A DNA stretch of 64,000 nt from a virus (lineage: Duplodnaviria > Heunggongvirae > Uroviricota > Caudoviricetes). The stretch's first letter is position 1. Every line of letters starts with the position of its first letter. Made by a program: the position numbers. Positions 60,001-63,000 of the stretch are shown here, piece by piece. The stretch lies in the IMG/VR virus record IMGVR_UViG_2880395615_000002, one strand, 5' to 3'.

Positions 60001-63000
60001 GGAACCATGGTGATGCTGTTAAGGAATGGTGAGTTTTCGAGAAGCCATTTGCAGAATAATCGATGCCATTGTAGTGCATATTCGCCACGGAATCCGGGGT
60101 CATACACCGCATGGCATTCAACAACGCTATGCCAGAAGTTACGCACTTCATGAACTCCAGCCAGCACTAATCCTTCGTAGATGCCGAGATATACCGCATC
60201 AGGCTTGATGTAGTATTTATCTCCACTGTCTACGATATTCCCCGTGTTTACCGGGTTGTTAAGGAATTCTGCAAGTTTCACCGGGTTATCGATGAGCTTT
60301 ATTTCCATCACTGCTCCGCAATGATTTTGATGGTTGTGGCAGTAAACGCCGCGCCATTCGACTGAATGGTTAGCGTGCTGCCATTTGTGGCAAGAAAGCC
60401 GTCTTTATCCACGCTGAAGAACGTAGCTAACAGGATGTTGTCGGTTGTTGTTGCCGAGTTGCGACTGCTTACTAGCGTGTCAGGAACAGAACCGGAGAAT
60501 GTTAGCTGCATTGACCTGTTGGCGGTTCCGCTGGGCCACGTCCCGACAATCGACAGCTTGAAGAACAAGGTTTTGTTCTCGTTGAACACAACCATCTTGT
60601 TGTTAACGGTGTCGAAGAATGGTGCCAACGTCCCGGATGACGGCGTAAGCGTTTTCAGCAGGCTAACAAGGTTGGTCGGCGCTGTCGGGATGGTTACTGA
60701 TACGCCAGAGTAAACAACCTCTGACTTCTTGCGCGTAGTGGCATACTCCAGAGCATTAATGCGCGTTTCATGGTCTGAAACCTGCGATTCCAGCGACTGA
60801 ACTCTGGTATCAAGCGATGCAATATCGCTTTCATTCAAGGCAATCAGTGGGTTTACGTCATGGAGTGGGCTCAACACCAGTCAGAGCCGCATGTACACGC
60901 AATAATCATGGTGAACGAAAGAAGCATTAATGGGCAAGCTGGCAAAATTGTCAGCAAATGGGTAACACTGGCAAACAATGCAATCCCATCAAATGTTCCT
61001 CCCCAGTGGGATCTAGATTTGAAAGGTCAGCAATATTCAGAGCCTACAAAGTGTATAGGTAAACAGATTGATTACATGGCAAAGCCCGAAACTAAGTTAA
61101 ATGACTTTAATAGAGAGGCGAGCAAGAGCCTATATGATTGGTCAGATGCCAACGTTTGGGGTTATTCGAATGGCTGGGCGCGGCATGAGATAAAAAAAGA
61201 AACACTTTCTATCACTGGCTTTCATGCTGTAAGACGCATACTAAAAGCCGTTCAGGCATCAAGGAAAGACAACTACAAAGCTAAGCGACAGATACAGCGT
61301 ACATTGAAACGACAAGACATAAATCGATCACCAATCACCCCGTTCCAAGCACCGTTAATTAGCAAACACGATTGGGATTTATCAGTGATAGCGGTCACCA
61401 AAGAGGCAGAGACAGAGCGCAGGGAATTACTATCCTCACAGATAATAAACTCGAACAAAGTACAAACCCACCCACTGTTAAGGATGTTAAGAAGAGCACG
61501 AGTGAGAGCATCCAGAGCCAAAAGAGAAAGCGGAGGTTATGACCATTACTACTAGTAGTGACAGATCGTGACAAGGCGGTGCAAAAAACGACCAATAATA
61601 AGAGAGATATGCCTGCCAAACCGCCAAAAGCGCGGAGCGCGGCAAACGCCGCGAGAGGCGCAAGAAGGCGAACCTATCCATTGAAACGGTCAGAAGCGCA
61701 TCGCGCTCGACGACCGAAGTCCCCACTAACACCGTTAACGAAAGATCAAAGTCTTAGAAAAAAATGACGTTTCTTTGATGGACTTCCATCCGTAAAAATC
61801 AAATTTTGAGAAAAAGTACTTATAGAAATTAATCGCTCTATAAGGATAAGTTGACGTTAGTTTAAAGTGATAAAACATTAAAGAAAAAACGTAAAATCAA
61901 ATACATAAAATAAGTCACCAAGGGATCATTTTCAGAAAACAACGTCAACGTAACGTCAACTCTGTAAGAACTTTTTTGGTCACTTTTTGGGTTGAATGTA
62001 CGTAAAAATCCCCAGCAGTGAAATTTGAGCGCGTAAGCACAATTCTGAGGGGCTTTTTGTCTGTAGGTTAGGCAGTGTAACTAACAATACAAGAAGTTAG
62101 CTCTGACTAACTATTTAATTAACTTTTCAATCTAATTGCGTTAGATATTATACCCTAACGCAATATTTTTAATTCAATAATGTCTGTAAATTGTTATTAC
62201 TTATAATTATACATTTAACTATATCTACATTGGCTGCTTCCAATTACTACTTACGTAACGGAATCTCGGATCCTCTGTTTTTGGCTCGGTATAATAAGAA
62301 TCATCAATAGTAAAGTTCGACGCTAATTTATCCCGAAGCCCACCTAAACGTTCAATGCTTGTTAGTTCGTTAGTAACATCCTTGAAAACGGTAGAAAATG
62401 CTTTATGTTGTTTAGACTTCATAAATTCAGGAGTGCTCAGTGCAAACTCTTTATCAGGCAAACCTGGAATACCCACGAGTCCTGTCAATGAATTTATACA
62501 TTTTATCAAAAAACTGCCTTGAATACCTTGATTTGATGGAACACCGTAGCTTCGTTTAATATCTCCAGATATTTTATCTAAATCACTTAGTAATTTTGTT
62601 ACTTTTTTATTTCCTGCACTTATCCCCGATTCATCGTAGGTCACATGAATCTCTCGGATTACATCTCGACACGTACGAAAATGATCATGTGTTCTAAGCT
62701 CTAAAGCTGAATTGATAACTTGAGAGACATTTCCTGTTTCGTTTGCTAGCCATGCAGAAAATATTGGTAAATCTAATGAAATAGTAGATGTGCGTCCATG
62801 ATCTACAATTTCAGATCTTGCAGTACTGATTTTATCAGACAACGATTGCACCAACCTTGCAGTATAATCATGACCAAAAGCACCTGTTTTTTTCATCCAA
62901 TGCAATTGATATGCATGCCTTATTGGATGAATAAATGAGTCTGCTTTAAAATGCTTAGCAATGACGCTGTAATAAATAGATTTATATGCCAACCAATTTA

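What the first reader, a model, noticed from the sequence alone, without database searches (positions are those of the whole stretch)
60860..61555. Possible HUH rolling-circle Rep fragment inside the prophage remnant
The plus-strand ORF has a His-hydrophobic-His motif (HVHAIIMV) and a YxxK-like motif (IDYMAK) with spacing typical of small HUH endonucleases. It overlaps the truncated 5' end of the tail-needle-like gene on the other strand. It may be a remnant of a satellite or filamentous-phage-like replicon inserted into the decaying prophage.
Basis: inference. Interest (0 to 1): 0.38.

Follow-up and report, generated by a model that had tools for sequence, protein, structure and literature searches.

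The report
Truncated rolling-circle Rep gene remnant

Summary
ORF 60860-61555 (+, 231 aa) exists and carries HVH (60890-60898) and YMAK (61073-61084). This is homology, not chance: it is 97% identical to residues 120-350 of a 350-aa protein found intact in about 222 E. coli genomes, in E. albertii and, at 55% identity, in Klebsiella. The full-length protein passes Pfam REP_ORF2-G2P. In 18 homologs sharing only 19-27% identity, the invariant residues are those of the HUH and YxxK motifs, and the motif I Thr is near-invariant. The best matches to its AlphaFold model are HUH Reps.

The window copy is cut at codon 112. Rep homology starts at 60837, and Sf6-type tail-needle homology (minus strand) ends at 60836. 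Motif I and the first strands of the fold are missing, so it is almost certainly a pseudogene.

It was not inserted into the prophage. In E. coli 7/2 a complete P22-like prophage and a complete island lie in tandem at argW. The island order is int, AlpA, small genes, Rep, cargo, resolvase, attR. O157/O55 matches that layout after one deletion of about 31.6 kb.

The island's replication module is homologous to 5-6 kb cryptic Klebsiella plasmids. A conserved non-coding block downstream of rep (61748-61787) is a candidate origin.

The parts
60837..61555 (+). 5'-truncated rep gene (codons 112-350 plus stop) of a HUH rolling-circle initiator. The mechanical ORF starts at the internal Met120 (ATG 60860); the PGAP start is ATG 60908.
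   Evidence: 94% nt identity to the intact rep in L006 811-2037 and L008 9782-11015, beginning exactly at 60837. 97% aa identity to P0001 residues 120-350.
60890..60898 (+). HUH motif (His-Val-His), equal to H130/H132 of the full-length protein
   Evidence: Sequence. P129, H130 and H132 are invariant in 18 homologs of 19-27% identity.
61073..61084 (+). Motif III, Y-M-A-K: catalytic Tyr candidate (Y191) and K194
   Evidence: Y191 and K194 are invariant in alignment A6. The Tyr lies C-terminal to HUH, which is the Rep-type order.
60836..60837 (.). Deletion junction between the prophage remnant and the island remnant. It is blunt, with no microhomology of more than 1 nt visible.
   Evidence: Phage homology (Sf6, Louie, Kapi1) ends at query position 537, which is window 60836.
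60308..60836 (-). 3' part of an Sf6-type tail-needle gene. The knob domain is complete; the N-terminal part is missing.
   Evidence: PF16532 E 1.7e-117, profile positions 1-175 of 175. 94-96% nt identity to phages Sf6, Louie and Kapi1. PGAP annotates it as a pseudogene missing the N-terminus.
61748..61787 (+). Conserved non-coding block AAAGTCTTAGAAAAAAA-N12-GATGGACTTCC. It is a candidate double-strand origin or nick region; this role is inferred.
   Evidence: The same block lies 190-275 nt downstream of rep in the E. coli and Klebsiella islands and in four Klebsiella plasmids whose Reps are only 25-29% identical. It includes an 18-nt exact match to plasmid L013. The pattern had a single hit in 596 Gb of genome contigs, next to an intact rep in E. 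albertii.
61819..61844 (+). Inverted repeat CTTATAGA-N10-TCTATAAG next to the conserved block
   Evidence: pair I18. CTTATA...TATAAG recurs in the plasmids, and the seventh pair changes from G..C to C..G in L011 (and, with a G-T wobble elsewhere in the stem, in L012). Folding is not significant.
61850..61960 (.). AACGTCAAC repeats: an inverted copy at 61850-61858 and direct copies at 61941-61949 and 61952-61960, flanking an AT-rich stretch
   Evidence: ACGTCAACGTAAC is identical in the E. coli and Klebsiella islands.
62225..63637 (-). Island cargo gene, 470 aa, function unknown, in the variable slot
   Evidence: No Pfam, NCBIfam or PADLOC hit. Other islands carry different genes in this slot.
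56460..56534 (+). tRNA-Arg (argW). Its 3' 23 nt (56512-56534) is the att core shared by the prophage and the island.
   Evidence: Rfam tRNA at 63.4 bits. RefSeq annotation. The 23-bp core repeats after the resolvase gene in L008 and L002. The O55 attR copy has a 1-nt deletion and lies outside the window.

Best explanation
Window 60837-61555 is the 3' two-thirds (codons 112-350) of the rep gene of a small (about 8-10 kb) island that integrates at the 3' end of argW.

The intact island, in order, is: attL, P4-type tyrosine integrase, a 250-aa ORF, AlpA excisionase/regulator, two small ORFs (one of them an HTH protein), a 128-aa ORF, Rep, a conserved non-coding block, variable cargo, a small ORF, a serine resolvase, attR. 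Its Rep-to-resolvase module is a plasmid backbone, homologous to 5-6 kb cryptic Klebsiella plasmids.

Inferred mode of action of the intact element: Int and AlpA excise a circle. The HUH Rep (one catalytic Tyr, no helicase domain) nicks one strand at an origin downstream of rep and primes rolling-circle replication with host helicase and polymerase. The resolvase resolves multimers.

In the O55:H7/O157:H7 lineage a P22/Sf6-like prophage (Sakai Sp16) had integrated in tandem at the same tRNA. A single illegitimate deletion of about 31.6 kb then removed everything from the 5' part of the prophage tail-needle gene to codon 111 of rep. The lost DNA includes the island's int, alpA and accessory genes.

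The remaining rep piece keeps the HUH and Tyr motifs. It lacks motif I, the first beta-strand, the first helix and most of the second strand of the fold. It also has no recognisable promoter or ribosome-binding site. It is a pseudogene, and the island is immobilised.

Shown: the homology, the truncation point, the tandem and deletion architecture, and the kinship with plasmids. Inferred: nicking activity, the identity of the origin, and non-expression.
For: Identity of the gene:
- P0001 (350 aa) is 97% identical over all 231 residues.
- P0001 passes PF23343 REP_ORF2-G2P at 29.7 bits against a cut-off of 27.8.
- All 18 family members hit PF23343 (best E 8.2e-11); 9 also hit Helitron_like_N and 2 hit RepSA.
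- E121, P129, H130, H132, W153, Q177, Y191 and K194 are invariant and T86 is nearly invariant at 19-27% identity.
- An AlphaFold model built on 18 sequences has pLDDT 85-96 over residues 55-230.
- There are 111 BFVD hits at E<=1e-3. The named ones are microvirus replication initiators, ORF2/G2P-domain proteins, replication gene A protein and a CRESS Rep.

Truncation and junction:
- Searches place the junction.
- The model puts strand 81-87 (motif I), helix 95-111 and strand 115-121 upstream of, or across, the break.

Architecture:
- The Klebsiella island sits directly at argW.
- E. coli 7/2 carries the tandem prophage plus island.
- 308 genomes carry the O157 junction and 222 carry the intact rep with its upstream gene.
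- The Sp16-argW assignment and its lack of excision are reported in PMC3519850 and PMC5359411.

Plasmid kinship:
-. Identities to the plasmid proteins are HTH 44%, 128-aa protein 39-46%, resolvase 45% and Rep 25-29%.
- Those plasmids have no other rep gene and no replicon type.

Origin candidate.

No promoter-like site was found on the + strand upstream of the ORF.
Against: - The fragment alone gives no Pfam or NCBIfam hit. The family assignment therefore rests on its full-length homolog.
- The Pfam score of that homolog is only 2 bits above threshold.
- No member of this subfamily has been studied experimentally, as far as my literature searches show.
- The ORF is still open for 231 codons and is 100% conserved between O55:H7 and O157:H7, so expression of a truncated protein cannot be excluded.
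- The origin assignment has no significant hairpin or covariation support.
- The ancestral tandem state is inferred from another strain. It was not observed in the O157 lineage.
Confidence: 0.85

Rival explanations
1. The family protein is a HUH relaxase (oriT nickase) that mobilises the island or plasmid by conjugation. It is not, or not only, a replication initiator.
For: There is a weak sub-threshold match to the MobA/VirD2 nuclease domain PF03432 (E 0.0053, 17.5 bits against a cut-off of 24.6). From general knowledge, some RCR Reps double as relaxases (the MobT type).
Against: The Tyr lies C-terminal to HUH, which is the Rep-type order; relaxases have it N-terminal (general knowledge of the HUH superfamily). 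All 18 members hit a Rep family. The homologous 5-6 kb plasmids have no other candidate replication gene and are typed non-mobilizable. The structural neighbours are Reps.
Confidence: 0.08
2. The intact island is a phage satellite that is induced and packaged by a helper, for example the P22-like phage sharing argW. The fragment is then a satellite remnant.
For: The int-AlpA module, tRNA integration, small size and variable cargo slot resemble PICI and P4-like satellites. The island is found in tandem with a P22-like prophage in 32 genomes.
Against: No capsid-redirecting, terminase or packaging gene was found, and there is no primase. Most islands sit at argW without that prophage. The backbone is shared with free plasmids. 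There are no hits in phage records. The only Kapi1-dependent PICI in the papers found, EcCIMP1, is a different, primase-bearing element at another locus.
Confidence: 0.12
3. The truncated ORF is still expressed and has a function, for example as a domesticated DNA-binding protein or as an inhibitor of incoming related replicons.
For: The ORF is open for 231 codons and retains the HUH and Tyr motifs and the whole C-terminal helical region. It is identical in O55:H7 and O157:H7.
Against: It lacks two of the core beta-strands and a helix of the HUH fold. There is no promoter-like site upstream and no Shine-Dalgarno sequence before either ATG. The identity across this recently diverged lineage carries no information. 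Other strains carry different truncations of the same gene (P0006, P0011), which looks like decay and not selection. The 12 differences from L006 split 5 synonymous to 7 non-synonymous, too few to decide.
Confidence: 0.05
4. The HUH and YxxK motifs occur by chance in a spurious ORF.
For: The fragment alone has no Pfam or NCBIfam hit.
Against: 97% identity to a full-length Rep homolog, motif columns invariant across distant homologs, and fold matches.
Confidence: 0.01

Closest known systems
Pfam PF23343 REP_ORF2-G2P (replication-associated proteins of the plectrovirus ORF2 and inovirus G2P type)
   Same: The full-length homolog and all 18 family members match it. They share motif I (uTLT), PHuH and a single YxxK Tyr, in the Rep order.
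   Different: The score is only just above threshold. The family is a narrow, divergent branch: 27 representatives at E<=1e-3 among 1.84 billion. It is found on integrative islands and small plasmids without any filamentous-phage morphogenesis gene, and it has no tblastn hit in 50,697 phage records.
Small cryptic Klebsiella plasmids (e.g. NZ_AP022186.1 pWP7-S17-ESBL-08_3, 5.7 kb; NZ_CP103581.1, 5.5 kb; NZ_CP073059.1, 5.7 kb)
   Same: Same module order: small HTH protein, 126-128-aa protein, Rep, conserved non-coding block, small acidic ORF on the opposite strand, resolvase. Protein identities are 39-46% for the accessory proteins and 25-29% for Rep. The AAAGTCYTAGAAAAAAA-N12-GAAGGGCWTCC block is shared.
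   Different: The plasmids are free circles with no integrase or AlpA. The island has added an integration module and sits in the chromosome.
pSAM2-type actinomycete integrative elements (AICEs), which combine a tyrosine integrase, Xis and the HUH RepSA
   Same: The logic is the same: a site-specific integrase at a tRNA gene plus a rolling-circle Rep that amplifies the excised circle. Two family members give sub-family hits to PF20199 RepSA.
   Different: No conjugative transfer (Tra/FtsK-like) gene is present here. The host is Enterobacteriaceae. The similarity is distant and the comparison rests on my general knowledge of pSAM2.
PICI and P4-like phage satellites of Enterobacteria
   Same: A P4-type integrase with the Arm-DNA-bind_3 domain, an AlpA regulator, tRNA integration, a size of about 10 kb and a variable cargo slot.
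   Different: Those satellites replicate with a primase-helicase and carry packaging or capsid-redirection genes. Here replication is HUH/RCR-type and no packaging gene is detectable.
SIRV1 ORF119 Rep (PDB 2x3g) and other solved HUH nuclease domains (parvovirus NS1, RepB of pMV158, AAV Rep, circovirus Rep)
   Different: Sequence identity is 9-15%, there is no significant sequence-level hit in the PDB, and the C-terminal domains differ.

Membership tests
HUH endonuclease superfamily, Rep class | Motif II: His-hydrophobic-His metal-binding motif | tested here: met
   HVH at window 60890-60898. H130 and H132 are invariant in 18 homologs.
HUH endonuclease superfamily, Rep class | Motif III: catalytic Tyr (YxxK) located C-terminal to HUH | tested here: met
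   YMAK at 61073-61084, 59 residues after HUH. Y191 and K194 are invariant.
HUH endonuclease superfamily, Rep class | Motif I (uuTu) on the first beta-strand | tested here: not met
   It is present in the full-length homologs (FTF/LTL with near-invariant T86). In the window copy it is deleted, because that copy starts at codon 112. The fragment is therefore an incomplete member.
HUH endonuclease superfamily, Rep class | HUH nuclease fold | tested here: met
HUH endonuclease superfamily, Rep class | Site-specific ssDNA nicking and joining at an origin | not testable with these tools
   This needs biochemistry. Only a conserved candidate origin block was found.
Pfam PF23343 REP_ORF2-G2P | Score at or above the gathering threshold (27.8 bits) | tested here: inconclusive
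   The window fragment gives no hit even at E<=1. The 97%-identical full-length P0001 scores 29.7 bits. Distant members reach E 8.2e-11.
Filamentous phage (Inoviridae/Plectroviridae) replicon | Morphogenesis genes (Zot/pI ATPase, coat proteins, secretin or adsorption protein) next to rep | tested here: not met
   No such domains were found in intact islands from Klebsiella or E. coli. There is no tblastn hit in phage records.
Phage satellite (PICI, cfPICI or P4-like) | Integrase plus AlpA plus primase/replicase plus packaging or capsid-redirection module, with helper dependence | tested here: inconclusive
   Integrase and AlpA are present in intact islands, but no primase and no packaging gene was found. 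Helper induction cannot be tested here.
Rolling-circle plasmid replicon | Rep is the sole replication gene of a small autonomous circle, with a cognate origin nearby | tested here: met
   The homologous module makes up the 5.4-5.7 kb circular Klebsiella plasmids, which have no other rep gene and no replicon type. A conserved block lies downstream of rep. Replication itself was not tested.

The most novel reading that the evidence does not exclude
The fragment points to a family of mobile elements that I could not find described. These are about 8-10 kb argW-integrating islands of E. coli, E. albertii and Klebsiella that look like integrated versions of cryptic rolling-circle plasmids. The backbone is int, AlpA, HTH protein, 128-aa protein, HUH Rep, a conserved origin-like block, and a resolvase. 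Variable cargo slots lie on either side of the origin-like block and may carry anti-phage or other accessory genes. The backbone is 91-94% identical between the two genera while rep itself has been swapped (67% nt identity). Such elements could be a new class of integrative plasmids or of satellites that replicate by rolling circle.
Probability: 0.35. Interest if true: 0.5.

Novelty: new member of a known kind. Interest (0 to 1): 0.25.

Why it matters
For the window itself the result is mainly a correction of annotation.

- The 'replication protein' or 'hypothetical protein' of the O157:H7 Sp16 region is a truncated pseudogene.
- The Sp16 remnant and its flank are the fused stumps of two different mobile elements, not one decayed prophage.
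- PHROG family 30534 appears to be built on this gene fragment.

More broadly, the intact relatives show how a small rolling-circle plasmid backbone can acquire a tRNA-specific integrase and become a chromosomal island with exchangeable cargo. They also supply a candidate origin sequence and a Rep subfamily that could be tested directly.

Tried and rejected
- Pfam, NCBIfam, PHROGs and PADLOC on the fragment alone gave nothing useful. The only strong hit was phrog_30534, which is the same fragment.
- NCBIfam on the full-length proteins gave nothing.
- Profile searches against PDB sequences gave only non-significant hits, although those hits aligned on the HUH motif.
- The first AlphaFold run, with 4 close sequences, failed at pLDDT 36.7. 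The second run, with 18 diverse sequences, worked.
- Two word-indexed homolog searches with alignments added almost nothing. The exhaustive HMM search supplied the distant relatives.
- The nick-site hairpin search was negative. DNA folding of 61556-61760 gave z -2.2 and of 61730-62060 gave z -1.0. The consensus fold of the conserved block across 7 elements gave -2.45 kcal/mol with no compensatory pair. No hairpin is claimed.
- Rfam found only the tRNA.
- The 69-aa basic ORF at 61558-61767 was considered and dropped. It has no family hit, and the L006 copy differs by indels that break the frame.
- I considered EcCIMP1, a PICI whose helper Kapi1 has a needle gene 95% identical to the remnant. 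It is a primase-bearing island between proA and yagU and is unrelated.
- Literature searches for the island or family found no description.
- The AFDB50 fold library was unavailable.
- The genome-wide scan for the origin-like pattern returned one locus only. That confirms the pattern is specific but adds no independent lineage.
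Full report
**1. Observation**

The plus-strand ORF 60860-61555 (ATG start, 231 aa) is present as described.
- HVH lies at 60890-60898.
- IDYMAK lies at 61067-61084, with the Tyr at 61073-61075.

The window is E. coli O55:H7/O157:H7 chromosome. Bases 60300-62300 are 100% identical to strains RM12579 and CB9615 and to many O157:H7 genomes, and 308 complete genomes carry the stretch. RefSeq annotation of the region reads:
- tRNA-Arg (argW), then intS;
- three P22-type ejection and virion genes;
- a 'tail needle knob protein' pseudogene missing its N-terminus;
- a 215-aa hypothetical protein, which is this ORF called from ATG 60908, downstream of the HUH motif;
- a 470-aa hypothetical protein, a small ORF and a serine recombinase.

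The literature calls the prophage remnant at argW in strain Sakai 'Sp16' and lists it among the prophages that showed no excision (PMC3519850, PMC5359411).

**2. What the ORF is**

On its own the fragment matches no Pfam or NCBIfam family. A protein search shows why. The ORF is 97% identical, over all 231 residues, to residues 120-350 of a 350-aa protein, P0001. Klebsiella has 336-347-aa full-length homologs at 55% identity.

The evidence for the family assignment is as follows.
- P0001 passes Pfam PF23343 (REP_ORF2-G2P) at 29.7 bits against a threshold of 27.8. It has only a sub-threshold echo of the MobA/VirD2 nuclease domain.
- RefSeq now names the intact E. coli gene 'rolling circle replication-associated protein'.
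- An exhaustive HMM search of 1.84 billion representatives found only 27 relatives at E<=1e-3, so this is a narrow family.
- I aligned 16 of the full-length relatives with P0001 and a Klebsiella homolog. At 19-27% identity the only invariant residues are E121, P129, H130, H132, W153, Q177, Y191 and K194, and T86 is nearly invariant. These are motif I (uTLT), motif II (PHuH) and motif III (YxxK) of Rep-class HUH endonucleases, with the single Tyr C-terminal to HUH.
- All 18 sequences hit PF23343 (best E 8.2e-11). Nine also hit Helitron_like_N and two hit RepSA.
- An AlphaFold model built on four close sequences failed, with pLDDT 36.7. With the 18-sequence alignment the core (residues 55-230) reached pLDDT 85-96.
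- Foldseek against viral models gave 111 hits at E<=1e-3. The named ones are microvirus replication initiators, ORF2/G2P-domain proteins, a 'replication gene A protein' and a CRESS-virus Rep.
- Sequence-only searches of the PDB were not significant, although the weak hits aligned on the HUH motif.

**3. The truncation**

Rep homology to intact copies (L006, L008; 94% nt identity) begins at window 60837, which is codon 112 of 350. On the other strand, homology to the tail-needle genes of Sf6, Louie, Kapi1 and related phages (94-96%) ends at 60836. The Pfam knob domain is complete in the remnant. The junction is blunt, with no visible microhomology.

The 18-nt 'overlap' of the two mechanical ORFs arises because the minus-strand frame happens to stay open into rep-derived DNA.

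In the model, strand 81-87 (motif I), helix 95-111 and strand 115-121 lie before or across the break. The fragment therefore lacks a large part of the catalytic fold.

No promoter-like site lies upstream on the + strand, and neither ATG has a convincing Shine-Dalgarno sequence. I conclude it is a pseudogene. Non-expression is inferred, not shown.

**4. Where it came from**

In Klebsiella the intact gene lies in an island of about 8 kb directly after argW. The order is:
- P4-type integrase;
- a 246-aa ORF;
- AlpA;
- small ORFs and a 128-aa ORF;
- Rep;
- cargo;
- a small ORF on the opposite strand;
- resolvase.

The 23-bp 3' end of argW is repeated just after the resolvase gene as attR, both in Klebsiella and in E. 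coli 7/2. In O55:H7 that attR copy has a 1-nt deletion and lies about 1 kb beyond the window.

E. coli strain 7/2 carries the following, in order: argW; intS; a complete P22-like prophage whose tail-needle gene has the same orientation as in the window; torI; an att copy; and then the complete island. Deleting from inside the needle gene to codon 111 of rep, which is 31,570 bp in strain 7/2 coordinates, reproduces the O157 arrangement exactly.

The island was therefore not inserted into the prophage. Two elements that share one att site sat in tandem, and a deletion fused their stumps. Only 32 E. coli genomes show the torI-int tandem junction, and most intact islands sit directly at the tRNA. 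About 222 genomes have the intact rep with its upstream gene. Other strains carry independent truncations of the same gene:
- a Rad52 N-terminus fused to rep residues from about 211 to 350 (P0006);
- the island integrase N-terminus fused to rep residues from about 257 to 350 (P0011).

**5. How the intact element probably works**

tblastn of the Rep finds nothing in 50,697 phage records. It does find distant homologs (24-29% identity) on 16 plasmids, 15 from Klebsiella and one from Enterobacter cloacae. Several are 5.4-6.3 kb circles typed as non-mobilizable, with no replicon type.

Three of these plasmids have the same gene order as the island's right-hand module: small HTH protein, 126-aa protein, Rep, a small acidic ORF on the opposite strand, and resolvase. 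They carry no other replication gene. Protein identities to the island are 44% (HTH protein), 39-46% (128-aa protein), 45% (resolvase) and 25-29% (Rep).

This is the best available evidence that the protein is a plasmid-type replication initiator and that the resolvase serves multimer resolution. Excision by Int and AlpA followed by rolling-circle amplification is an inference from the domain content.

A relaxase role and a satellite lifestyle cannot be excluded, but both are less well supported. The motif order is Rep-like. No packaging or primase genes are present. The one Kapi1-dependent PICI in the papers I found is a different element.

**6.

Downstream of rep the window keeps about 670 bp of non-coding DNA. 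Two parts of it (61735-61830 and 61942-62023) are conserved with the Klebsiella island, even though the cargo there sits on the other side of this block.

- **Conserved block.** The core AAAGTCYTAGAAAAAAA-N12-GAAGGGCWTCC (window 61748-61787) recurs 190-275 nt downstream of rep in four Klebsiella plasmids, despite 25-29% Rep identity. It includes an 18-nt exact match to plasmid L013. A degenerate version of the pattern occurs once in 596 Gb of species-representative genomes, in an E. albertii copy of the same island with an intact rep.
- **Inverted repeat.** Next to the block lies CTTATAGA-N10-TCTATAAG (61819-61844). Its seventh pair changes from G..C to C..G in plasmid L011, and in L012 with a G-T wobble elsewhere in the stem.
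- **AACGTCAAC repeats.** Copies lie at 61850, 61941 and 61952.

I propose this region as the origin. However, folding z-scores of -2.2 and -1.0 and a consensus fold with no compensatory pairs give no statistical support for a nick-site hairpin. Rfam finds only the tRNA.

**7. Comparison with known systems, and novelty**

The protein is a divergent member of the Rep class of HUH endonucleases (PF23343). The window copy is an incomplete, dead member.

In logic the element resembles pSAM2-type integrative elements, which combine a tyrosine integrase with an RCR Rep. Its left arm resembles PICI and P4-like satellites. It lacks the conjugation genes of the former and the primase and packaging genes of the latter.

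I found no paper describing this island family. The searched library is limited, so absence of a description is not proven.

**8. Verdict**

As a feature of this window it is an ordinary pseudogene scar, so interest is low (0.25). The intact relatives are a modestly interesting lead: integrative rolling-circle plasmid-like islands with swappable cargo and a testable origin.

Noticed in passing
window 58028-59164 (-): The 378-aa ORF annotated 'phage DNA ejection protein' looks like a chimera. Its N-terminal part matches the P22-type ejection protein of strain 7/2. Its C-terminal part is a hydrophobic segment in DNA of 27% GC (58000-58400). This would be a second deletion or fusion scar inside the Sp16 remnant.
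   Followed up: partly
window 62225-63637 (-): The 470-aa island cargo protein has no Pfam, NCBIfam or PADLOC match. The same slot holds 330-aa and 821-aa ORFs in E. coli 7/2. In Klebsiella an HNH_2 gene plus two ORFs sit on the other side of the origin-like block. This is a variable cargo position, possibly defence-related.
   Followed up: partly
window 60908-61555; PHROG phrog_30534: phrog_30534 ('unknown function', 215 profile positions) corresponds exactly to the PGAP-called piece of this truncated rep gene (E 2.4e-154). The phage protein family appears to be built on a pseudogene fragment from a non-phage element.
   Followed up: no
proteins P0006 and P0011 (other E. coli genomes): There are independent truncations of the same rep gene. 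One fuses a Rad52/Rad22 N-terminus to rep residues from about 211 to 350. The other fuses the island integrase N-terminus (about 157 aa) to rep residues from about 257 to 350. Deletions have repeatedly removed the int-to-rep arm while keeping the cargo and resolvase arm.
   Followed up: no
L008 5919-9470 and 15321-16245 versus L002: The island backbone is 91.6% (int to the 128-aa gene) and 94.5% (resolvase to attR) identical between E. coli and Klebsiella pneumoniae. The rep gene between them is only about 67% identical. This suggests recent inter-genus transfer of the backbone and replacement of the rep and origin module.
   Followed up: no
L006 1-27 and 3224-3250: The only contig encoding exactly P0001 is bounded at both ends by the same 27-nt sequence in inverted orientation (ggtaatgactccaacttattgatagtg). 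From memory this is the IS1 terminal inverted repeat. In that strain the rep segment would then lie between two IS1 copies.
   Followed up: no
L008 9448-10500 (intact rep in E. coli 7/2): PGAP starts the intact rep at a 285-aa form. That start cuts off an N-terminal block (KR...GWT...R) that is conserved in distant homologs, so the 350-aa start is more likely correct.
   Followed up: no
L001 16631-16790 (about 1 kb beyond the window end), also L008 and L002: The stretch between the resolvase gene and attR is almost identical in E. coli and Klebsiella. It contains two GGGGCACC repeats, possibly integrase arm sites. The attR core in O55:H7 has lost one G.
   Followed up: no
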